From the sequence record NC_049466.2: 52,401 nt of DNA; one strand, written 5' to 3'. Source of the stretch: Escherichia phage vB_EcoM_4HA13. Position numbers and translations under genes: made by a program. Positions 1-27,406 of this stretch are shown one piece after another. The stretch's first letter is position 1; each line of letters starts with the position of its first letter. The notes beneath the pieces were generated by a model that worked only from the letters and a program-made list of their open reading frames with translations, did no database searches and had not been told where the DNA came from.

Positions 1-117
1 TTAAATACGGTCCCTACTCCAACTTTTTCTAGCCTATCGGCTTAGAACTAACACCAAGTTAGGCGCTTCGCTTATGAGTCAACGTCAACACCACTCGCTG
101 TGAGATTAGCACTGTTC

Positions 118-143
118 TGCTACATTAGTTGGAAATGATTGTG
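118..143 (+). promoter_or_regulatory. Conserved motif copy P0 (ACATTAGTTGGAAATGATTG); candidate phage promoter
   Basis: Matches the motif repeated at 2705, 6090, 10502 and 12635; lies upstream of first genes in window. Confidence 0.45.
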
Positions 144-2740: not shown

Positions 2741-3624
2741 ATATTCTGCATGTCATTTTTTATTGGTGTACAACAATATTAGCATGACAACTTGAAGCAC
2801 AGTGTGATTATGTTTGGCAACATAGAACTCCCTGAGTTTGGCCGCTCAAAGTTCCCGTCACCATGTAGAGAGTAAGAATAAGATTCGAAACTGTTGTTTC
2901 AACTAAGCATGACTCATCCCTAAAGAAGCTGGGACAGCTCATGTAGTACCCTGCTGTTTCCGAGAGTTGCAACAGGTTAAGCATGTCCAATTGTTCCAAT
3001 ATTGTCACAGTCCTATTATAAAGGCCCACCCACAAGCCGGGACTATTTAGACATGATTGGAACTTTTGGTTCATGCGATTGTAGAGAAAGTAAATTCGGT
3101 AAGAGAGCGAATACCGGACATTGTTCCGATTACAGGTATCGCCTACGCCCCGAAATTGAGCAACAAATATTGTGACAGTATTGCCTCAACAATGGCATGT
3201 GTTGCGTAGCGACAATCGTACAATATCCGCATGTAAGAATGTGCCAAACTGTTAGGGGACTAATCACCTCGAAGATACGGTGAACGTGGCAATCTAGCAT
3301 GTGGATTCGTTACGAAGATTGTGACAATAATCAGCATGTAATATTGTAACAGTATTGTGCTAACCCGCATGAATACTGGCTCTCAGCCAAGCGAAGGCTT
3401 TATCATTGCATGTAATATTGTGACAATATTGGGATTTTTAAAAGATTTATTCTTTTTATTTATTCTTTATTGTCGGTTTACAGCACTTGCTCAGCGAACT
3501 TTGAATGTGCCAAATACGTTCGAAATTGCTGTGAGTGTGGAAACCAATTAGTTATAAATGTGCATGTGATATTGTGACAATATTCTCCATTTGGCGGGGA
3601 GTGAAGTTGCAATATTGCATGTCA
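2741..3624. repeat. Array of related about 25-bp repeats built around the palindrome AATATTGT-G-ACAATATT, often preceded by GCATGT
   Basis: Copies near 2998, 3166, 3318, 3334, 3406-3433, 3560-3587 and 3609; the 3414-3430 copy is a perfect 8-1-8 inverted repeat. No credible ORF in 2631-3837. Confidence 0.6.
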
Positions 3625-6050: not shown

Positions 6051-6085
6051 CATTGCAAGCTGGCAAGCGAGGCCATTAACCCAAC

Positions 6086-6110
6086 TTCAACATTAGTTGG
6101 AATTGATAGG
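6086..6110 (+). promoter_or_regulatory. Conserved motif copy P2 (CAACATTAGTTGGAATTGATAGG)
   Basis: Intergenic, upstream of the gene at 6175. Confidence 0.5.
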
Positions 6111-12606: not shown

Positions 12607-12631
12607 TTCGTTTGTAAATAAGAGCAGTTCT

Positions 12632-12654
12632 GAAACATTAGTTGGAATTGATTC
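12632..12654 (+). promoter_or_regulatory. Conserved motif copy P4 (GAAACATTAGTTGGAATTGATTC)
   Basis: Best match to the consensus; intergenic, upstream of the acidic gene. Confidence 0.5.
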
Positions 12655-15003: not shown

Positions 15004-15233
15004 AGAAATCTTACGCGCCTATTGTTGGTATTCTTGGTATCCTTTTGATTTCGTGTTCGACACCGAGCGTGCCTCCAAACAAGTTAGTAAATGGATATTG
15101 CGATATTGCAAGTCCAATCCTACTGCTGAAATCCGAAATTCCTTTGCTCTCATTGGGGAGCAAACAACAAGTTCTTGCCCACAATAAAATGTGGAAAGAA
15201 AAGTGTTCGACGGAACTTACCCGACAAAAGTAG
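15000..15233 (+). CDS. o-spanin (Rz1-like outer-membrane lipoprotein)
   Basis: Signal peptide with lipobox LISC, Pro-rich mature part; ATGA overlap with i-spanin. Start could alternatively be the GTG at 14988. Confidence 0.5.
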   Translation: MKKSYAPIVGILGILLISCSTPSVPPNKLVNGYCDIASPILLLKSEIPLLSLGSKQQVLAHNKMWKEKCSTELTRQK

Positions 15234-16117
15234 TGACGTCAACAAATGGTATCAGCTAGACGGTGGTGTAAAAGACTGACCGTGGCGACGACGCCATATT
15301 GCTCTGGGCATAACAGTTGAAATTGCTGCCTCCTAGGATTGGAACGTCCCGCTACACATCGTTAGGGTGAGAAGGTTAGTCCACCGATACAAAGGCTTGC
15401 GGCTTACACCGGCCAAAGAAGAAAACGGTGTGCTTGAGAACGAAGCTCCGATGACCCCGTAAAGTCAACGTAATGAACACGAGACGTTCAGGTGTCCTCT
15501 TCCTAAAACAGAACGACGAGAACAAACTCGTAATCAGTTGCGGCAACGTGGTCCGGTCAAAGAACAATGAGCCACAGGTTTCCAAGCATCCGTAAAAGCA
15601 TGGCGTAGTTGACGCGTTAAGCACGAATAGCCCACGTTACGGGCCACAGAATTTGGAACTTGGTATCTGTAATGCGTCGTATTACGAATCATGAAAGCCG
15701 CACATAAGAGTGTGTAGACACATGGACTTAATAGAGGCAGATAAAATAACCAAGTTCCATACCGAAAACCTCCTGCTGGTTATTCTTCCAGATTAATAAA
15801 AGAAATAAGAAGCGTCTGGCATAGTGTAGCGATACACCTTAGTTGCGCTGATTGTGAAGTGTCGAAAAGGTTTCGGCCTGTTTGGGTTTCTCCTCATCCC
15901 GAAGTTTGAGTAATCGACTACTCAATGTTCCTAATCACATGAAATATGCAAGGCAGGGTTCTTGATAAAGTTTACTAATTCTTTATCAGGCGGGTTTAGC
16001 GATTTTCCCGGAAGGTCTCCCATAATGCGGAATTGTATATTGACTAAGCCGAAATAAATATACTCAGTTTCCAGTCTGAACAAAACTGGAATCAAATTAA
16101 CTTTAACTGGAGTTGTT

Positions 16118-16387
16118 ATGAACAGAAATTACGAACTTGTTATCCCACCTGCACCACAGCCAGAAATGGTATTGCGTGATAAAATTGCTACAATTGTTTA
16201 CGAACAAATACTTGTAGACAATAAAATGCGGGATATTGTGTGTATTGATGAAGCATCTTTGAAACATATCTCAAAGGGTATCGCCAAGATTGCACATGAT
16301 TTTGCCGATGACTTTATGCGCGAACGTTATGAACGTATGTGTGTTAAAGCAACTGGTATTAACCTCGAAGATTTAGTAAAGAAATAA
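16118..16387 (+). CDS. Hypothetical protein
   Basis: GGAG RBS; first gene after the 884-bp non-coding island. Confidence 0.5.
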   Translation: MNRNYELVIPPAPQPEMVLRDKIATIVYEQILVDNKMRDIVCIDEASLKHISKGIAKIAHDFADDFMRERYERMCVKATGINLEDLVKK

Positions 16388-16422
16388 TGTAAAAACAAAT
16401 TTCAGTAGAACTCGTAGACCAT

Positions 16423-17054: not shown

Positions 17055-18815
17055 ATGCTAATTAAACAGTGCGTTCTTAAAATGAAGCACGACCATCCCG
17101 ATTGCAAATCCACCAGCGGGAAGTCATTGCAGGTGTGGATTAACGAATCAGAAGATGGAAAGCGTTTCTATTCCGGCTTTTGTTTCGCATGTGGTGTTGC
17201 TGTTCCAAACCCTCTGGGAACTGACGAAACAAAGTTTCCTGAAATTAAAATTAAGACTCCAGAAGAAATTCAGGAAGAACTTAATGAAATTACTGGCTGT
17301 CCAGTATTTGATTTAGAACATCGTTCAATTGAACCGGAATATTGGGGCGCTGCTCGTGTTCGACTGTTATACTCTGAATATGACGGCAAGACTCCATACG
17401 CCCTTGCTCATGGTTTTACAAAAGCTGGCAAACTTGTTCGCTGGAAGATTAAGCTTCTGAACAAGAAAGTTATTTGGTCTGTTGGGGATACTCAGGATAA
17501 CGACCCATATAACTGGGAAGCTGCCAAAGCAATTGGCGGTAGAACATTGTATATCACAGAGGGTGAGGAAGATGCAATTGCACTTCGTCAAATTCTGAAA
17601 ACTGCAAGTGCAGGTGGAGCATATGCTGAGTTAGACTTCCCTATTATCTCATTAACAGATGGGAGTGATTCAGTTCATAAATCTTTGTCTGGCAAAATAG
17701 AGGAAATAAAGCAGCGTTGGGAACAAGTTGTCATTGTATTTGATGACGACGAACCTGGACGTAAGGCAGCAAAAGAAGCTTGCCGTTTAATTCCCGGAGC
17801 AATGATTGCAGCACTGCCAGCAAACGATGCTAACGACTGTCTTCGTCGTGGCATGATTAAGGCAGCACAAGCAGCAGTTGTGTTTCGTGCAGCTCGTCCA
17901 CTTCCTACAGCATTAGTTGATAAAGAACTACTGATGGATGAATTGGATGATGAAGTTGAAGAAGGTGTTGATTATCCGTGGAAGCGATTAACCGAACTCA
18001 TGTATGGCCAACGTCGTGGTGAAGTTATTACACTTGGTGGTTCTGAGGGTGGTGGTAAAACCACAATGGCTCGTCAGAATGCTGAGCATAATATTATTCA
18101 GCATGATTGGAGTGTATTCTCTGCATTTATGGAAGAAACGCCACAAGAAACTTTACGTCGAATGGCTGGATTGCACGACAACCTTCCGTATTGGGAACCA
18201 AACTTTAAATTTGACCCAAGATACGATGAAGAAAAGTTCAAACAAACTTCCCGTCGCATGTTGCAGAACATGGAAATTTGGGACCGTAAACTTGCTGGTG
18301 AAGACCCATATGAAACATGGGAAGGATTGAAGACAATTATTCGTCAGATTGGTCCAGATATTGATATGTTTATTTTGGATAACCTGACTTACTTGTCAGA
18401 AGGTATTTCATCAACTGAGAAGAACGATTTCTTAGGTAAGTTGTATGCGGATATCACCAAACTATCAGACCAATATCAATTCCATTGTCTAGTGTTGTCT
18501 CACTTAAACCCTGTTGCAAAAGGTCAGCGTCCACATGAGGATGGTGGTCGAATCAAGAAGGGTGACTTTACTGGTTCTCGTGCTGCTGCAAAATACTCTC
18601 ATGGTATGTTTGGCTTTGAACGAAACAGTCAGGCAGTTGACCCTAATTGCTCAATCATTCGTTCAATCAAAGCTCGTAAGAGTGGTAAGACCGAAGGTTT
18701 CAAAACGTACTACGATAGTGATTCAGGACGTATTATTCAGCGTAGCTGGGATGATAGCCTGTTCGAAACAAGAGAAATTGTCCAGTTAACCAAGAAGACT
18801 GGACCACATCAATAA
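17055..18815 (+). CDS. DNA primase-helicase (T7 gp4-like)
   Basis: N-terminal Cys cluster, TOPRIM-like TEGEEDAIAL, Walker A GGSEGGGKTT, Walker B-like DMFILDNL. Confidence 0.8.
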   Translation: MLIKQCVLKMKHDHPDCKSTSGKSLQVWINESEDGKRFYSGFCFACGVAVPNPLGTDETKFPEIKIKTPEEIQEELNEITGCPVFDLEHRSIEPEYWGAARVRLLYSEYDGKTPYALAHGFTKAGKLVRWKIKLLNKKVIWSVGDTQDNDPYNWEAAKAIGGRTLYITEGEEDAIALRQILKTASAGGAYAELDFPIISLTDGSDSVHKSLSGKIEEIKQRWEQVVIVFDDDEPGRKAAKEACRLIPGAMIAALPANDANDCLRRGMIKAAQAAVVFRAARPLPTALVDKELLMDELDDEVEEGVDYPWKRLTELMYGQRRGEVITLGGSEGGGKTTMARQNAEHNIIQHDWSVFSAFMEETPQETLRRMAGLHDNLPYWEPNFKFDPRYDEEKFKQTSRRMLQNMEIWDRKLAGEDPYETWEGLKTIIRQIGPDIDMFILDNLTYLSEGISSTEKNDFLGKLYADITKLSDQYQFHCLVLSHLNPVAKGQRPHEDGGRIKKGDFTGSRAAAKYSHGMFGFERNSQAVDPNCSIIRSIKARKSGKTEGFKTYYDSDSGRIIQRSWDDSLFETREIVQLTKKTGPHQ

Positions 18816-18924
18816 CAAAGAACTCCCACTGCATAGAGCTGGCTAACTTAGTAGTCGTCGGTAACTACCAGTGGGATTCTTCCTATTTAACCTGGAGCCT
18901 AAAGTGTTGTATCCGTGGGAAAAT

Positions 18925-20361
18925 ATGCAAGCCAGTGATATTGAAACTACTGGATTGCTGAAACAAATGAAAAAGCAAGCGAGTCCTCGTTTGCACAACT
19001 TTGGTTTCATCGATATGATGACCAAAGAAGAAACCGTTATGGAATGGACGGAACGGAAACGTATTCAAGATTATTTGAATACAGGACCAACACTTATCAT
19101 GCATAACGGCGCAACCTTTGACTTTGAAGCATTAAAGTTCTTAGGTTATGACGTATCTAAATGTACTCTGATTGATACTTTGTATCTAAGTTGGTACTTA
19201 GAACCTCGCAGACCTAAACACGGTTTGGAAAGTTACGGTGAAGAATTTGGTGTGCCTAAACCAGTCATTGAAGATTGGGAAAACCAAACTCAGGAAGAAT
19301 ACAACAATCGTGTACTGGAAGACTGTAAAATTCAGTCTCGCCTGTGGGAACAGCAGTACAGCCAACTGTTGCAAATTTATCGTTCACCACAAGAGGTAAG
19401 ACGTTTCGTAGAATACTTAATGACAAAAGCACGTCAACAAGTTATACAGCAACGCACCAAGTGGAAGTTGAATAAAGAAAAGGCTTACGCATTTAAGGCA
19501 ATGTTGGAACCAATGTTGCTTGAGAAAACTTCTGAACTTGAGAAGTCAATGCCGCGTATTGTTGAATATGCGCTCAAAAGCCAGCCAGCAAAAATGTACA
19601 AAATGGACAGAACTTTGTCTGCCGCTGGTATTAAATGGAAAGCTATTTGTGATGCAAATGGTTTAGATTTCCGTGACCCTGATGTTCAAATTAAGTACAT
19701 CAAAGGTTATAAAGAGCCGAATGCAAACTCTCACGTACAGCTTAAAGAGTGGCTGTTCAGTTTGGGTTGGGTTCCTCAAACATTTAAGTTTGACCGTAAT
19801 AAGGAAACTGGCGAAACTCGTCAGATTCCACAAATAACAATTAAGGATGAAGATGGTAATCCTGAGATTTGTCAAAGTCTTCATGACTTGGCTGAATCGA
19901 ATCCCGGAAAAGGTATTGAACATCTTATTGGCTTGGGCGTTTATAAACATCGTCTTAGTGTTGTCAACGGGTTTCTGCGCGATGTTGATGATGAAGGTTT
20001 CCTTACTGCACGTTGTGGTGGCCTTACTAACACTTTACGTCTCAAGCATCGTGAACTCGTTAACCTGCCTTCTATTCGTGTGTTTGGTGGTGCGGAACTC
20101 CGAGGAATGCTTGAAGCGCATTCAGAAGAATACGAACAACTAGGTTCGGATTTGTGTTCTCTGGAAGACCGTTGTAAGCACCATTATCAGTGGGCGTATG
20201 ACCCTGAATATGTTAAGAAGCAGTTAGCTGATGACTATGATGCACACTTAGCAATCGGTGTTATCGGTGGATTCATTACTGAGAAAGAATCTCAGGACCA
20301 CAAAGACGGGATTGCAAAATGTAAGCAACGTCCAATGTTCAAAACAACAAACTATGCGTAA
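18925..20361 (+). CDS. DNA polymerase, family A (T7 gp5-like), N-terminal part ending inside motif B
   Basis: Starts MQASDIETTGLL (compare T7 MIVSDIEANALL, Exo I); Exo II HNGATFDFEAL; ends ...KTTNYA at a stop inside motif B. Confidence 0.8.
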   Translation: MQASDIETTGLLKQMKKQASPRLHNFGFIDMMTKEETVMEWTERKRIQDYLNTGPTLIMHNGATFDFEALKFLGYDVSKCTLIDTLYLSWYLEPRRPKHGLESYGEEFGVPKPVIEDWENQTQEEYNNRVLEDCKIQSRLWEQQYSQLLQIYRSPQEVRRFVEYLMTKARQQVIQQRTKWKLNKEKAYAFKAMLEPMLLEKTSELEKSMPRIVEYALKSQPAKMYKMDRTLSAAGIKWKAICDANGLDFRDPDVQIKYIKGYKEPNANSHVQLKEWLFSLGWVPQTFKFDRNKETGETRQIPQITIKDEDGNPEICQSLHDLAESNPGKGIEHLIGLGVYKHRLSVVNGFLRDVDDEGFLTARCGGLTNTLRLKHRELVNLPSIRVFGGAELRGMLEAHSEEYEQLGSDLCSLEDRCKHHYQWAYDPEYVKKQLADDYDAHLAIGVIGGFITEKESQDHKDGIAKCKQRPMFKTTNYA

Positions 20362-21014
20362 ATTGATGCGCATATAAAATCCCTTTAATTCGGTGGAACT
20401 CTCTACCGCAGAGACAATACCGAGCGAAGCATGAAAAGAAATTACTCACCAAAGAAATGTCCTTGTGGAAATGTATTTATTCCGACAGGGCCAAGAAGTT
20501 CCAAGTGCAAACCGTGCTCTAAGATTGTTGAACAGGAATCGAGAGATAGGTCGTACATAAAACATTGCCTCAATACAGGTATTAACTGTGGTGCTGGCAC
20601 AGGAAACTTCGAACACGCAAAAGGTTCAGAAAGCAAGTGCTACTCTTCTGGCAAAGGAAATTATGTCCGTGCTAGAAAGGAAATGCTTGAAGACCTCAAG
20701 TGTTGTGAAAGGTGTGGAAAGAATCTAATAAACGTTCACTATACAAAGCGTGTGATTCATCATCGGGACCATGACAGAAGCAATAACGTAAGAAGTAACT
20801 TTGAGTTACTTTGCAAACGTTGTCACCAACTTCATCACGATTGTCACGATGCTTTCATGAACGTGTAACGACTAGCCGTAAGGCGTACATCCAAGTGGAT
20901 GGAAACGGGGGACCCGACGTTTGTCGGTGATGATATAGTCTGCTCTGCATGGTGACATGCAGCTGGATGAAATTCCGGCATAAGATTAACGAACTTATGT
21001 GAACAATGTAAATG
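20360..21014 (+). mobile_element. Probable group I intron carrying an HNH endonuclease ORF, inserted in DNA polymerase motif B
   Basis: Flanking ORFs split motif B (KTTNYA / QYGAG); GACTA at 20870-20874 can pair with TAGTC at 20936-20940 (P7-like); hairpins with GNRA loops (GCC-GTAA-GGC, TGCATG-GTGA-CATGCA). Exact splice sites are inferred. Confidence 0.55.
20431..20868 (+). CDS. HNH homing endonuclease (intron-encoded)
   Basis: Cys-rich zinc-finger segments plus HHRDHDRSNN...LLCKRCHQLHH. Confidence 0.7.
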   Translation: MKRNYSPKKCPCGNVFIPTGPRSSKCKPCSKIVEQESRDRSYIKHCLNTGINCGAGTGNFEHAKGSESKCYSSGKGNYVRARKEMLEDLKCCERCGKNLINVHYTKRVIHHRDHDRSNNVRSNFELLCKRCHQLHHDCHDAFMNV

Positions 21015-21493
21015 GTCAATATGGTGCTGGTGTTGCAACTGTAACTCGTTCTGCTAAATGCGATTTGGCAACTGGTGCACGACTGCATAAAGCATATTGG
21101 GACTTGAACTGGTCCATCAAAGAGATTGCAGCTAATACAGTTGTTAAGACAGTTGATGGTCAGATGTGGCAGCAGAATCCAGTAAATAAATTCTGGTATT
21201 CACTCCGCACTGAGAAAGACCGATTCTCTACTCTGTGTCAGGGCACTGGCGCATATGTGTTTGATATCTGGTGTAACAATATTATCGCAATCTGCAACGA
21301 ACGTTATGGATGCGACCCACTCCTTTCTGGTCAGTTCCACGATGAATTGATTTTGCAAGTGAAGAAAGGGTATCGTGAATTGTGGACGGCACTGTTGCAT
21401 GAAGCGATGGAACGTACCAACAAACAACTTAAACTCAACCGTGATTGTGCATGTGATGTTCAATTCGGTGATAATTATTCAGAGATTCACTAA
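20999..21493 (+). CDS. DNA polymerase, family A, C-terminal part (motif B second half and motif C)
   Basis: Begins ...NGQYGAGV and contains FHDELILQV. GTG start with no obvious RBS, consistent with being an exon that in a spliced model would begin near 21015. Confidence 0.75.
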   Translation: MNNVNGQYGAGVATVTRSAKCDLATGARLHKAYWDLNWSIKEIAANTVVKTVDGQMWQQNPVNKFWYSLRTEKDRFSTLCQGTGAYVFDIWCNNIIAICNERYGCDPLLSGQFHDELILQVKKGYRELWTALLHEAMERTNKQLKLNRDCACDVQFGDNYSEIH

Positions 21494-21747
21494 TGGCACA
21501 GAAAGTTTTTGCGTTTTATGACGTGCAAGAAAACCGCCTACATATGTTTGTAGCAAATGCTGAACAAGCTGAAAATGATGCTGTAAACCAATTTATCGCA
21601 GCAAATGTAGATGAATTCTTTACTACTTCAAATCTGGAACAGGCTGAGAAATTGCAGTCTGTTATTTCTGAAACAACCTCCACCGACGAGCTGAAATCAG
21701 CATTAGTTGGATGGGACTTCCAACTTGAAATGATTCAAGTGGATTAA
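21493..21747 (+). CDS. Hypothetical acidic protein
   Basis: ATGA overlap with polymerase end; contains a promoter-motif-like copy at 21701-21711. Confidence 0.45.
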   Translation: MAQKVFAFYDVQENRLHMFVANAEQAENDAVNQFIAANVDEFFTTSNLEQAEKLQSVISETTSTDELKSALVGWDFQLEMIQVD

Positions 21748-21773
21748 TTAACTGTAACTCAAAGGTAACTAAA

Positions 21774-22637
21774 ATGGCATTTGATGCTCCTACTCTGGCC
21801 TCCAACAAAGCCCCTTCTGCTGCGCCATTACTGGAAGCGGGTGGCTATCCTGCTCGCGTTTGTCGTATCATCGACTTAGGCTGGCAACCGGGTTCTGCAA
21901 AGTATCCACAACCTCAGCTTAAATTGCTGGTGACTTTCGAACTTCTGAATGAGTACATGAAAGAAGTTGATGGTGAAGGCAAAATCATCATGGTCCAAGA
22001 CCCGGACGAAGATGACGGTGTTCTGATGGGCAAGAACTTGGAAGACAAGCCACGTTGGTTTGACTTTGAGTTCAGTTACAACTCCGATGGCTACATGGGT
22101 GACAACTCTCACATCTACAAATTTGCGAAAGCAATTGATGCAATGGAAGTTGCGCCAAATCTGGAACAAGGTGTTCAAGGTCATCCGGCTAAGAAACTTA
22201 TTGAATGGCTTGGCGAACCACTGACCGTTGGTCTTGACCAGTACCAGAGAAAGTCTGGTAAGAATGCCGGACAAATGGCAAACAAAATTATTACGTTTGC
22301 ACCAATGAAGTCCAAAGAGAAGCGCGAAGCGAAAGAACTGGTTAACCCAACTGTGTTCTTCGACATGAGCAACCCTGACCTTGAAGTGTTCAACAAACTT
22401 CCAGGCGGTGAGTCTCCATTTGCAATCAAGAACCGTATCACCACTGGTCCGAAGTTTGCCGAATCAAAACTGTCTGCATTGATTGGCGGTAAGCCAGTTG
22501 ATACTGCAACGCCGAATCAGGCGTCAGAAGAACAGGTTGACGAAGCGATGCAAGCAGAGTTGGAAGCACAGAAGCAAGCTCGTGAAGCAAATGCTGCTGC
22601 AAATGCAGAAGGTGCCACAAGCAACATTCCGTTCTAA
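21774..22637 (+). CDS. Putative ssDNA-binding or replication accessory protein with acidic C-terminus ending IPF
   Basis: Sits in the replication module; acidic tail ending ...SNIPF like SSB-family tails. Confidence 0.4.
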   Translation: MAFDAPTLASNKAPSAAPLLEAGGYPARVCRIIDLGWQPGSAKYPQPQLKLLVTFELLNEYMKEVDGEGKIIMVQDPDEDDGVLMGKNLEDKPRWFDFEFSYNSDGYMGDNSHIYKFAKAIDAMEVAPNLEQGVQGHPAKKLIEWLGEPLTVGLDQYQRKSGKNAGQMANKIITFAPMKSKEKREAKELVNPTVFFDMSNPDLEVFNKLPGGESPFAIKNRITTGPKFAESKLSALIGGKPVDTATPNQASEEQVDEAMQAELEAQKQAREANAAANAEGATSNIPF

Positions 22638-26255: not shown

Positions 26256-26770
26256 TGTCATGCAAAGATGAAAAACAAACTGTTAAAGTTTTACGAATCC
26301 GCCCCGATGCAAAACTTCCTGCGTATGCTTCTGTTGGTGCCGCTGCTGCTGACGTTTGCACAATTTCCGATTGTAGCGTTGCTATCAATCCTGGCTGCTC
26401 TCAGCTTTTCCGCACTGGACTCAAGTTCGAAATACCAGTGGGTTGGGAAATCAAAGTGCATAGCCGTAGCGGTCACGGTTTTAAGCATGGCATTCGCCTT
26501 AGTAATTGTACCGGAATACTGGACAGCGACTACACTGGTGAGCTTATGGTCAAACTCACTAATGATTCAGAAACCGTTTACAAGGTGCAGCCATTTGAGC
26601 GAATCTGCCAAATCCAAGTTTGTCGGGCTGTACAACATGATTTCGTTGAAACTTTGGGCGAACTCAAAGTAACTGAACGTGGTGAAGCTGGCTTCGGTTC
26701 AACTGGAACTACTGAACTTGGTTCGCACAATCACCCGTTGGGTGTGGACGCATTTATCAAAAACATGTAA
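26255..26770 (+). CDS. dut: dUTPase (trimeric dUTP pyrophosphatase)
   Basis: ILDSDYTGEL and ERGEAGFGSTG motifs. Confidence 0.8.
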   Translation: MSCKDEKQTVKVLRIRPDAKLPAYASVGAAAADVCTISDCSVAINPGCSQLFRTGLKFEIPVGWEIKVHSRSGHGFKHGIRLSNCTGILDSDYTGELMVKLTNDSETVYKVQPFERICQIQVCRAVQHDFVETLGELKVTERGEAGFGSTGTTELGSHNHPLGVDAFIKNM

Positions 26771-26778
26771 CAACATCA

Positions 26779-27009
26779 ATGGAGCAACCGATGTTAGAAT
26801 TATATAGTCAACTTCTCTCGCACCTTAATGCGGAAGAAAATGATATGGCCTTGGAGTTTGAGGCCAAGTTGATTGAGTTGTTAAGCCAACAAGACCAACT
26901 GAATGAAGATAGTCAATTCCTGCAATGTTTGAAGAATGCTGGTGTTGATGATTGGGATGGGTACAGTTTTGCCCAAGAAGAAATGTGGCCGGAGGATGAT
27001 GATGAATAA
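26779..27009 (+). CDS. Hypothetical acidic protein
   Basis: Ends in WPEDDDE. Confidence 0.45.
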   Translation: MEQPMLELYSQLLSHLNAEENDMALEFEAKLIELLSQQDQLNEDSQFLQCLKNAGVDDWDGYSFAQEEMWPEDDDE

Positions 27010-27406
27010 GATTTCAAAATACGGCAATGTCGTAACCCCCGTTCAGTTCGGTTCCCTTATCCGCAGTATCTTCGAAGACCCTTTTGAAATCTCAGAAGAC
27101 TTCATGAAGCATTCCGAATGTCGTTGTGAGTTTGGTCAAGAAATTGATTTGGAATTAGCCAAAGAGATTCTTGATTCTTACAAAGGAGTGAACATTGAGC
27201 CGAAAGACTTGGTGGGCACTTGGATGATGGAATGTTCTCGCGACTACAGTAATGGTATTTACTGGGATGAAGTTTCTGAGATTGTCAAAGTTGAAAAAGT
27301 AACTGAAACAATAACTGTCACCAAATGGAAACCAATTATCGATGAAAATGTCCCAGCCTGTCGTCCTCAACAACCGCAAAGTAAAGTTTGCTTACCTCAA
27401 CAGTAA
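27002..27406 (+). CDS. Hypothetical protein
   Basis: Third of three consecutive ATGs, 6 nt after GGAGG. Confidence 0.45.
   Translation: MNKISKYGNVVTPVQFGSLIRSIFEDPFEISEDFMKHSECRCEFGQEIDLELAKEILDSYKGVNIEPKDLVGTWMMECSRDYSNGIYWDEVSEIVKVEKVTETITVTKWKPIIDENVPACRPQQPQSKVCLPQQ

What the first reader, a model, noticed from the sequence alone, without database searches (positions are those of the whole stretch)
20360..21014. Probable group I intron with HNH endonuclease in DNA polymerase motif B
The polymerase is split into two ORFs exactly within motif B (...KTTNYA stop, then ...QYGAG). The intervening 655 bp has an HNH ORF, a P7-like pairing (GACTA at 20870 with TAGTC at 20936, inside GATATAGTC, an S-element-like sequence) and three GNRA-loop hairpins. 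A splice joining U20359 to 21015 restores frame and gives ...NYACQYGAG with correct motif B spacing. The second ORF has a GTG start and no RBS.
Basis: partly seen in the sequence, partly recalled or inferred. Interest (0 to 1): 0.65.

Follow-up and report, generated by a model that had tools for sequence, protein, structure and literature searches.

The report
Self-splicing intron in phage DNA polymerase
The 655-base insert that splits this coliphage's DNA polymerase gene is a typical T4 td-like mobile group I intron carrying its own HNH homing endonuclease, a well-known kind of selfish element found here in a phage family and at a polymerase site (motif B) where it had not been described.

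Summary
Window 20360-21014 (655 nt) interrupts a family A DNA polymerase. Removing it gives a 644-aa protein colinear with the uninterrupted polymerase of phage Mangalitsa, with ...KTTNYACQYGAG... identical. The insert has every sequence-level hallmark of a subgroup IA2 group I intron:
- P1 with a U20359·G20368 wobble, a terminal G21014 and a 6-bp P10
- P3-P9.2, including P7.1/P7.2 and the P/Q/R/S elements

Its 3' part is 92% identical over 74 nt to the T4 td intron. Rfam's group I model matches full length but below its cut-off (27.3 vs 50 bits, E 9e-5). A purpose-built model of P7-P9 finds one site in the window, and 19 of its 23 pairs covary across 16 related introns. P3, P4, P6, P6a, P1 and P10 also show compensatory changes.

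The 145-aa ORF sits in the P6a loop. It keeps all invariant HNH and zinc residues of a small family whose members, in every case examined, lie in introns within polymerase motif B. One such intron, in Pectobacterium phage CB7, is published as spliced in vivo.

Verdict: a new member of a known kind, of modest interest. Splicing and endonuclease activity are inferred, not shown.

The parts
18904..20359 (+). DNA polymerase exon 1. It covers the 3'-5' exonuclease region, the N-terminal polymerase region and the first half of motif B, and ends ...KTTNYA plus the first base of the Cys codon.
   Evidence: Colinear with Mangalitsa QEG07845 from its first residue. The start is GTG 18904, with GGAG 6 nt upstream. 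The mechanical ORF call begins at GTG 18871.
20360..21014 (+). Group I intron, subgroup IA2, 655 nt
   Evidence: Absent from about 17 related polymerase genes and present in BSBP01. Boundaries. Rfam RF00028 matches full length at E 8.9e-5. Structure verified.
20353..20374 (+). P1 hairpin: 5' exon UAUGCGU (20353-59) pairs with the internal guide GCGCAUA (20368-74). U20359·G20368 is the 5' splice-site wobble pair. Loop bases AUUGAU (20362-67) form P10.
   Evidence: All 7 pairs are standard and are recovered in the MFE fold. Compensatory change in L010: UAUUCGU/GCGAAUA.
20380..20426 (+). 5' half of the catalytic core: P3 5' strand (20380-85), J3/4, P4 (20390-94 / 20419-23), P5 (20400-04 / 20410-14), J5/4 CAAU, and P6 5' strand (20424-26)
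   Evidence: Pairs verified. P3, P4 and P6 covary across 10 related introns. Aligns to the td intron.
20431..20868 (+). HNH homing endonuclease gene (145 aa) in the loop closed by P6a. P6a pairs 20430-36 with 20853-59, so its 5' strand contains the AUG. The UAA stop lies in J6/7.
   Evidence: phrog_25862 E 3.7e-24. Invariant CxxC/HH/N/N/CxxCH residues are all present. The AlphaFold model's best fold matches include HNH nucleases, but weakly. P6a covaries.
20853..20999 (+). 3' half of the core and peripheral helices: P6a/P6 3' strands, J6/7, P7 (20870-74 / 20936-40), P7.1 (20875-84, GUAA loop), P7.2 (20888-20901), P3 3' strand (20907-12), P8 (20914-27), J8/7, P9 (20945-62, GUGA loop), P9.1 (20963-78) and P9.2 (20979-99)
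   Evidence: Model R1 gives 112.8 bits, the only hit in the window. 96% of cells are paired and 19 of 23 pairs show double changes. 74 nt are 91.9% identical to T4 td.
21014..21020 (+). Terminal G (omega-G 21014) and the P10 partner GUCAAU (21015-20) at the 3' splice site
   Evidence: 6 standard pairs with 20362-67. Compensatory pair in L007: ACUGAU/GUCAGU.
21015..21493 (+). DNA polymerase exon 2: the rest of motif B (C)QYGAG, motif C and the C-terminus
   Evidence: Pfam DNA_pol_A matches profile positions 259-381 of 381. Colinear with Mangalitsa.

Best explanation
Window 20360-21014 is a mobile, self-splicing group I intron of subgroup IA2. It is a close structural relative of the T4 td intron. 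It sits inside the motif B codons (K-x3-Y-x3-Y-G, the O-helix) of the phage's family A DNA polymerase gene.

Inferred mechanism:
1. The polymerase gene is transcribed through the intron.
2. The RNA folds into P1-P10 around a P3/P7 pseudoknot.
3. An external guanosine attacks after U20359, which is held in P1 by the guide GCGCAUA.
4. The freed 5' exon, kept next to the 3' exon by P10 (AUUGAU/GUCAAU), attacks after G21014.
5. The ligated mRNA encodes a 644-aa polymerase with an intact motif B. Unspliced RNA stops at the UAA that spans the junction, which would give a truncated protein lacking half of motif B and all of motif C.

The P6a loop carries a 145-aa zinc-ribbon plus HNH endonuclease. 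By analogy with I-HmuI, I-BasI and I-PfoP3I, this enzyme nicks or cuts intronless polymerase alleles near the insertion site during mixed infection. Repair then copies the intron in (homing). The endonuclease AUG lies inside the P6a stem, so the folded ribozyme probably limits its translation.

Shown here: the boundaries, the fold, the covariation, the homology and the patchy distribution. Inferred: the catalysis, the endonuclease activity and target, and the translational control.
For: Boundaries
- DNA and protein alignment to intronless Mangalitsa gives an exact 655-nt insertion and the identical peptide KTTNYACQYGAG.
- The spliced CDS is 644 aa, the same length as the homologue.

Ribozyme structure
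- RF00028 matches positions 1-253 of 253 at E 8.9e-5.
- All 13 helices plus P10 form with standard pairs. The MFE fold of the ORF-deleted RNA recovers P1, P4, P5, P7.1, P7.2, P8, P9, P9.1 and P9.2.
- P7.1 and P7.2 are joined by GUA, the IA2 signature as described in PMC3428280.

Covariation
- Model R1 gives a single window hit at 112.8 bits. The T4 td intron scores 84.8 and the CB7 intron 102.7.
- Across 16 related introns, 96.1% of cells are paired and 19 of 23 pairs have changes on both sides. No shuffle out of 500 reached these values, and slid controls reach at most 43%.
- P3 pairs across the ORF in 10 of 10 introns using 7 different sequences (for Klebsiella phage DP).
- P4, P6 and P6a also covary.
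- P1 and P10 show compensatory changes in L010 and L007.

Similarity to a proven ribozyme
- 91.9% identity to T4 td over 74 nt, with the core alignable throughout.

Endonuclease
- The HNH and zinc ligands are invariant across 19 homologues and all present in the window protein.
- All 19 genomic contexts read lie between two PolA halves.

Mobility
- Of about 19 related Carltongylesvirus-like isolates, only BSBP01 carries the intron.

Precedent
- The homologous CB7_52 intron at the same motif is reported as spliced by RT-PCR (PMC7344957 Table 3, read).
Against: - There is no RNA or protein data for this phage.
- The Rfam score (27.3 bits) is below the gathering score (50), and the whole-window scan at gathering threshold found nothing.
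- The HNH domain is below Pfam's cut-offs. No PDB relative was found by sequence, and fold matches to HNH nucleases are all above E 0.01.
- The endonuclease has only a weak Shine-Dalgarno-like sequence (GAGCGAAGC before the AUG).
- Some phage genes split by an HNH gene do not splice: Aeh1 nrdA, and one CB7 insertion, as cited in PMC7344957.
- The intron is about as diverged between carriers as the flanking exons, so recent homing is not demonstrated.
- The alignment used for pair counts was fitted to the model structure, which biases it towards that structure.
Confidence: 0.92

Rival explanations
1. Split polymerase without splicing. In this reading the insert is a decayed intron remnant, or a free-standing HNH gene that landed in the polymerase gene. 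The two halves would be translated separately, exon 2 from GTG 20999, and would assemble after translation, as reported for Aeh1 NrdA split by mobE.
For: An in-frame GTG at 20999 precedes exon 2. Rfam's gathering score is not reached. Non-splicing HNH insertions are described in PMC7344957.
Against: - The ribozyme core is intact and under selection: compensatory changes occur in nearly every helix, including P1 and P10, which exist only to define splice sites.
- No Shine-Dalgarno sequence precedes GTG 20999, which lies inside helix P9.2.
- The break falls inside the O-helix, between the motif B Lys and Tyr residues that act together, so two fragments are unlikely to reconstitute it.
- The homologous CB7 intron is reported to splice.
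Confidence: 0.04
2. A splicing-competent intron whose endonuclease is no longer active or mobile. The intron would then be a fixed, vertically inherited passenger in this lineage rather than an active homing element.
For: - Intron divergence between carriers (72-92% per 100 nt) is similar to that of the flanking exons.
- The endonuclease has a weak ribosome-binding site and its AUG is buried in P6a.
- The HNH domain scores below Pfam's thresholds.
Against: - The ORF is intact in every carrier.
- All 24 invariant and most near-invariant family positions are kept, including the catalytic His/Asn residues and both CxxC pairs.
- The patchy distribution among close relatives, and the presence of the same HNH family in unrelated phage lineages at the same motif, argue for ongoing lateral movement.
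Confidence: 0.15
3. A different kind of intervening element: an intein or a group II intron.
For: All three kinds of element target conserved motifs of phage replication genes.
Against: - Stop codons separate the insert from both exons. TAA spans the junction at 20359-61, and exon 2 is in another frame.
- There is no reverse transcriptase or maturase.
- No group II or other Rfam match was found, even at E 10.
Confidence: 0.005

Closest known systems
Phage T4 td intron (subgroup IA2, encodes I-TevI)
   Same: - Same ribozyme architecture: P1, P3-P9.2 with P7.1/P7.2.
- The ORF sits in the P6a loop and its stop codon lies in J6/7 (UAACGACUA).
- J8/7, P7, P9, P9.1 and P9.2 are 91.9% identical over 74 nt.
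- T4 td scores 84.8 bits with the model built from the window's relatives.
   Different: - The host gene differs: thymidylate synthase in T4, DNA polymerase here.
- td has a P2 helix, which the window intron lacks.
- The td ORF is a GIY-YIG enzyme (I-TevI, 245 aa), while this one is a 145-aa HNH enzyme. The ribozyme and its endonuclease therefore have separate histories.
DNA polymerase intron of Pectobacterium phage CB7 carrying CB7_52 (also Klebsiella phage DP, Escherichia phage Av-05; Vequintavirinae)
   Same: - Homologous HNH protein, 35-39% identical.
- Homologous IA2 core, 102.7 bits.
- Insertion in the same PolA motif B: KGVTYG|IMYGAQ, one base upstream of the window's site.
- Splicing in vivo is reported by RT-PCR (PMC7344957).
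   Different: - A different phage family with a very different polymerase.
- That intron has a P2 helix and a longer P6a.
- Its insertion point follows the codon boundary (offset 18 rather than 19).
- The CB7 paper gives no motif-level position and no RNA structure.
HNH-bearing IA2 introns in PolA genes of T7-like phages PhiI and W31 (I-TslI), cyanophage Pf-WMP3 (I-PfoP3I), and Bacillus phages SPO1, SP82 and Bastille (I-HmuI, I-HmuII, I-BasI)
   Same: - Same kind of element: an IA2 group I intron in a family A polymerase gene, an HNH gene in P6a, and often no P2.
- In Pf-WMP3 a stop codon also lies right at the 5' splice site.
- The characterised enzymes of this group are nicking endonucleases (PMC3428280).
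   Different: - The published insertion sites are E. coli Pol I positions 674, 676 and 881, which are the PNLQNIP region and motif C. The window's site corresponds to about position 764, in motif B.
- PhAPEC5, read here, is in the PNLQ region.
- The window's HNH protein belongs to a different small family (phrog_25862) with an N-terminal CxC...CxxC zinc ribbon.
Escherichia phage BSBP01 (PQ231202.1, Chaseviridae)
   Same: The same intron at the same site, 86.9% identical, with an HNH protein 85.5% identical.
   Different: The GenBank record annotates it only as 'DNA polymerase', 'HNH protein' and 'hypothetical protein'. No intron is annotated.

Membership tests
Group I intron | An insertion in a gene that is continuous in homologues, whose removal restores the reading frame | tested here: met
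   Exact 655-nt insertion relative to Mangalitsa. The spliced product is 644 aa and colinear with it.
Group I intron | The 5' splice site follows a U that forms a U·G wobble at the end of P1 with an internal guide sequence | tested here: met
   U20359·G20368 in a 7-bp P1. Compensatory change in L010.
Group I intron | The intron ends in G (omega-G), and P10 pairs the guide sequence with the 3' exon | tested here: met
   G21014, with a 6-bp P10 between 20362-67 and 21015-20. Compensatory U-A to C-G change in L007.
Group I intron | Conserved core P3-P8 with the P3/P7 pseudoknot and the P, Q, R and S sequence elements | tested here: met
   All helices form. Covariation is seen in P3, P4, P6, P7, P7.1, P7.2, P8 and P9. 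AAUUCGGUGGAA, CAAUACCGAGC, UAACGACUA and GAUGAUAUAGUC align to the Rfam and td consensus.
Group I intron | Rfam RF00028 curated gathering score (50 bits) | tested here: not met
   27.3 bits at E 8.9e-5, full-length match. Nothing was reported at gathering threshold. The model has to bridge a 437-nt ORF. PMC11878797 notes the same problem for ORF-bearing phage introns.
Group I intron | Guanosine-dependent self-splicing in vitro, or ligated exons in vivo | not testable with these tools
   Needs RT-PCR or an in vitro splicing assay.
Subgroup IA2 | Extra helices P7.1 and P7.2 between P7 and the 3' strand of P3, linked by G-U-A | tested here: met
   P7.1 at 20875-84, GUA at 20885-87, P7.2 at 20888-20901. 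Both helices covary at 100% paired. The criterion is as stated in PMC3428280.
HNH homing endonuclease | HNH beta-beta-alpha metal finger with catalytic His and Asn residues, usually with two CxxC zinc ligand pairs | tested here: met
   C92xxC95, H110 H111, N119, N123, C128xxC131 H132 and H136 are invariant in 19 homologues. PHROG HNH family E 3.7e-24. Pfam HNH E 0.0035, below cut-off. Fold matches to Cap5, McrA and Gme HNH are weak.
HNH homing endonuclease | Encoded in a peripheral loop of a self-splicing intron, with patchy distribution among close relatives | tested here: met
   The ORF lies in the loop closed by P6a. The intron is present in 1 of about 19 related isolates. All 19 contexts read for the family are PolA motif B introns.
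HNH homing endonuclease | Site-specific nicking or cleavage of the intronless allele near the insertion site, and intron homing | not testable with these tools
   Needs protein expression plus a cleavage assay on the Mangalitsa or ST32 allele, and mixed infections.
Intein | One continuous reading frame through host protein and insert | tested here: not met
   TAA at 20359-61, and exon 2 is in a different frame.

The most novel reading that the evidence does not exclude
The window's endonuclease belongs to a small HNH family (phrog_25862; 17 clusters among 5.8 billion proteins, plus 26 isolate phages). In all 19 contexts read, its members lie in IA2 introns within the roughly 30 nt that encode polymerase motif B.

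The inferred insertion point varies between phage lineages. Counted in nucleotides from the first base of the motif B Lys codon, the offsets are 8, 13, 17, 18, 19, 21 and 22. These lineages include Chaseviridae, Vequintavirinae, and Xanthomonas and Aeromonas phages.

This would make motif B a fourth homing hotspot in family A polymerases that, in the papers read here, has not been mapped. It would also be a natural series for studying how an endonuclease's target and its intron's insertion point drift apart.

In addition, the endonuclease start codon is buried in the covarying P6a stem. That suggests ribozyme folding and endonuclease translation are mutually exclusive.
Probability: 0.45. Interest if true: 0.4.

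Novelty: new member of a known kind. Interest (0 to 1): 0.27.

Why it matters
For annotation: this genome (IMG/VR UViG 2974699376_000001), BSBP01 and several metagenomic relatives should carry one spliced 644-aa DNA polymerase, not two fragments plus a 'hypothetical protein'.

For biology: it extends td-type mobile introns to Chaseviridae. Together with the Vequintavirinae, Xanthomonas and Aeromonas phage examples, it points to the O-helix/motif B codons as a recurrent target of one dedicated HNH family. The enzyme is small (145 aa) and probably a sequence-specific nickase, which could be of modest practical interest.

None of this changes how group I introns or homing are understood.

Tried and rejected
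- Rfam at gathering threshold over the whole window found nothing. The group I match appears only in the permissive scan of 901 nt. The two other hits there, a snoRNA and a lncRNA fragment at E above 1, are chance.
- PDB sequence searches with the HNH protein and with its family profile gave only noise: an IscB HNH at E 0.3 and ZBTB17 zinc fingers.
- Foldseek on the AlphaFold model (pLDDT 80.5) gave no match below E 0.01. The top hits were DotN, a zinc protein, followed by HNH nucleases. I use this only as weak support.
- NCBIfam gave only a sub-threshold YajD-family HNH match.
- The promoter and terminator scan of 18700-21800 found no more sites than shuffled sequence, and nothing that would give the endonuclease its own promoter.
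- The identity profile along the gene against other intron carriers shows no clear co-conversion tract, so recent homing is not demonstrable.
- A second intron or further homing endonucleases: model R1 finds a single site in the window. The extra ORF relative to Mangalitsa at 26936-27406 has unknown function and is not a recognisable nuclease. There are no tRNAs.
- The Bonocora and Shub 2004 paper on PhiI/W31 is not in the library. Its content is cited only through PMC3428280.
- One Pfam call failed because I gave wrong coordinates.
- The intein and group II intron readings were rejected on the sequence.
Full report
**What is there**

The window is a complete 52,401-bp phage contig, IMGVR_UViG_2974699376_000001 (identified by its length and the pattern hit). 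It belongs to the Chaseviridae/Cleopatravirinae group of coliphages. The polymerase region is 81.5% identical to Escherichia phage BSBP01 and about 79% identical to Mangalitsa, ST32 and relatives. The genome is colinear with Mangalitsa.

The family A DNA polymerase gene lies downstream of the primase/helicase gene and is interrupted:
- An ORF ends ...KTTNYA, with its TAA stop at 20359-61.
- A 145-aa ORF lies at 20431-20868.
- An ORF from GTG 20999 carries the C-terminal third of the Pfam DNA_pol_A profile (positions 259-381 of 381).

**Boundaries**

About 17 related isolates match the query in two pieces that abut in their own genomes. They therefore lack the insert. Only BSBP01 matches straight through it.

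Mangalitsa reads ...AACTATGCTTGTCAATATGGTGCTGG.... The window reads ...AACTATGCGT [655 nt] GTCAATATGGTGCTGG.... The only frame-restoring placement is intron = 20360-21014. The joined product aligns end to end with the 644-aa Mangalitsa polymerase, and KTTNYACQYGAG is identical in both.

The real start is GTG 18904, 6 nt downstream of GGAG. From there the spliced CDS is 1935 nt / 644 aa, exactly the length of the Mangalitsa gene.

**The insert is a group I ribozyme**

Rfam's group I model aligns over its full length (positions 1-253) to 20350-20962 with E 8.9e-5. At 27.3 bits this is under the curated 50-bit cut-off, and nothing passes at gathering threshold. That is the usual outcome when a long ORF sits in a loop, as PMC11878797 also notes.

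I drew the structure by hand and checked every pair:

| Element | Coordinates | Note |
|---|---|---|
| P1 | 20353-59 / 20368-74 | U20359·G20368 wobble at the 5' splice site |
| P3 | 20380-85 / 20907-12 | spans the ORF |
| P4 | 20390-94 / 20419-23 | |
| P5 | 20400-04 / 20410-14 | |
| P6 | 20424-26 / 20862-64 | spans the ORF |
| P6a | 20430-36 / 20853-59 | closes the ORF loop |
| P7 | 20870-74 / 20936-40 | |
| P7.1 | 20875-84 | GUAA loop |
| P7.2 | 20888-20901 | |
| P8 | 20914-27 | |
| P9 | 20945-62 | GUGA loop |
| P9.1 | 20963-78 | |
| P9.2 | 20979-99 | |
| omega-G | 21014 | |
| P10 | 20362-67 / 21015-20 | 6 bp |

All pairs are standard. The MFE fold of an ORF-deleted construct recovers nine of these helices. 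It cannot show both P3 and P7, because they form a pseudoknot.

P7.1 and P7.2 joined by GUA place the intron in subgroup IA2 (criterion as given in PMC3428280). There is no P2.

**Similarity to known introns**

The last 150 nt or so match 528 phage records, most of them introns in T-even thymidylate synthase genes. Others lie in rV5-type terminase genes, N4-like and T4-like polymerase genes and jumbo-phage genes.

Window 20932-21005 is 91.9% identical to the T4 td intron. The two cores align throughout: J3/4, P4-P5, J5/4 GACAAU, UAACGACUA, GUA, L7.2, J8/7, P7 and P9-P9.2. Self-splicing of the T4 td intron is established knowledge.

**Covariation**

I built a covariance model of P7-P9 from nine related introns (R1).
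- It finds exactly one site in the window: 20862-20966, 112.8 bits.
- It also scores T4 td at 84.8 bits and the CB7 polymerase intron at 102.7 bits.
- On the 16-sequence alignment, 96.1% of cells are standard pairs and 19 of 23 pairs change on both sides. No shuffle out of 500 reached any measure, and partners slid by 1-3 columns give only 31-43% pairing. The alignment was fitted to the model, so the absolute numbers lean towards the structure, but the margin is large.

The long-range helices, which no local model can favour, also covary:
- P3 pairs perfectly in all ten introns using seven different sequence pairs: UCCCUU/GGGGGA, CCUCUU/GGGAGG, CCGAUU/GGUCGG, UCCAUU/GGUGGA, CCCGGU/GCCGGG, CUGUGU/GCACAG and CAAUGC/GCAUUG.
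- P4 and P6 covary as well.
- P6a, which closes the ORF loop, is CAUGAAA/UUUCAUG here. It is CUUAAGAU/AUCUUAAG, CUUGACUA/UAGUCAGG and CAAAGGCUUCCC/GGGAAGCCUUUG in relatives.

The two helices that exist only to define splice sites also show compensatory changes:
- P1 is UAUGCGU/GCGCAUA here and UAUUCGU/GCGAAUA in L010.
- P10 is AUUGAU/GUCAAU here and ACUGAU/GUCAGU in L007, where the exon change is a synonymous CAA to CAG.

This is strong evidence that splicing is selected for.

**The ORF**

The 145-aa protein matches PHROG 25862 ('HNH endonuclease', E 3.7e-24). It matches Pfam HNH and HNH_3 only below threshold.

It has just 17 homologous clusters among 5.8 billion proteins, the best 86% identical, and appears in 26 isolate phage records.

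The family alignment shows these invariant positions, all present in the window protein: C92-E-R-C95, H110 H111, D113 H114, N119, N123, E-L-L-C128-K-R-C131-H132-Q and H136. An N-terminal CxC...CxxC zinc ribbon is nearly invariant.

An AlphaFold model (mean pLDDT 80.5) gives only weak fold matches: DotN, then the HNH domains of Cap5, McrA, Gme and Cas9, all above E 0.01.

The ORF's AUG (20431-33) lies in the 5' strand of P6a, and its UAA stop is in J6/7, as with I-TevI in td. The Shine-Dalgarno-like sequence is weak. I infer that a folded ribozyme restricts translation of the endonuclease. This is untested.

**Context of the family**

Every homologue whose neighbourhood I read lies between two halves of a family A polymerase gene. 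These are 13 metagenomic loci and isolate phages DP, CB7, Av-05, NR08, DES1 and HJ05.

In each case I worked out the splice junction from the reading frame, the U/G rule, P1/P10 and the K-x3-[YF]-x3-Y-G spacing of motif B. All insertions fall within motif B, at different offsets counted from the first base of the Lys codon:

| Offset (nt) | Loci |
|---|---|
| 8 | L011, L018 |
| 13 | L014 |
| 17 | L012 |
| 18 | DP, CB7, Av-05 |
| 19 | window, BSBP01, L007, L019, L010, L020, HJ05 |
| 21 | L016, NR08 |
| 22 | DES1 |

These junctions outside the window are inferences.

The published PolA intron sites summarised in PMC3428280 are E. coli positions 674, 676 and 881. The window's site corresponds to about position 764, so motif B is a separate site.

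It is not unprecedented, however. CB7_52 is a homologue (39%) in an intron at KGVTYG|IMYGAQ. The CB7 paper lists that intron as spliced by RT-PCR, without mapping it to a motif.

**Rivals**

- A non-splicing split gene is unlikely, for three reasons. The splice-site helices covary. GTG 20999 has no ribosome-binding site and lies within P9.2. The break also falls inside the O-helix.
- An intein or a group II intron is excluded by the stop codons and by the absence of the corresponding features.
- A splicing intron with a dead endonuclease cannot be excluded. The intron is about as diverged as its flanks between carriers. Against this, the intact invariant residues and the patchy distribution argue for activity.

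**Verdict**

The element is a td-type IA2 group I intron with an HNH homing endonuclease, which is a classic phage element.

What is new:
- The host lineage. Two searches for Chaseviridae or Vequintavirinae intron papers found no description of an intron in a Chaseviridae gene, and BSBP01's copy is not annotated as an intron.
- The recognition that one small HNH family is dedicated to polymerase motif B.

Interest is modest.

Noticed in passing
window 2980-3584: Five copies of a 24-nt direct repeat (TGCATGTAATATTGTGACAATATT; 75-100% identical), spaced 74-179 nt apart. They lie in an ORF-poor stretch that corresponds to the terminal-repeat/early region of Mangalitsa. They may be early promoters or operator sites.
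   Followed up: no
window 117-139, 2700-2722, 6085-6107, 12630-12652: Four copies of CTGNNACATTAGTTGGAAWTGAT in intergenic positions. They may be promoters for the phage-encoded single-subunit RNA polymerase (ORF 399-2363).
   Followed up: no
window 26707-27342 (ORF 26936-27406): About 600 nt are present here but absent from Mangalitsa, between the dUTPase and terminase genes. The stretch carries a 156-aa ORF of unknown function (phrog_24684) that is not a recognisable nuclease.
   Followed up: partly
L001 828-1226 (BSBP01); L007 and L009 491-997: Relatives that carry the same intron also have a free-standing endonuclease gene between the primase/helicase and polymerase genes. In the metagenomic contigs it gives weak HNH_3 and AP2 Pfam hits. 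The window has only a 55-nt spacer there (18816-18870).
   Followed up: no
L016 and L017 (P0017), L020 (P0013), P0016: In some relatives the HNH ORF reads on through P7, P3' and P8 into J8/7-P7. The C-terminal ...GDDIV is the translation of GGUGAUGAUAUAGUC. The same bases therefore encode both protein and catalytic core.
   Followed up: no
L006 1506-1615 and 2798-2910 (phage rV5 terminase); L143 4427-4533 (CB7 polymerase, second intron): The P7-P9 model also detects two td-like cores in the rV5 large terminase gene and a second, weaker one (48.7 bits) in the CB7 polymerase gene. Related IA2 cores are therefore spread over several essential genes of Vequintavirinae.
   Followed up: no
window 15188-16420: A stretch of about 1.2 kb has no ORF of 90 aa or more on either strand, just upstream of the thymidylate synthase and primase genes. 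Mangalitsa has only small ORFs there, one of them on the minus strand.
   Followed up: no
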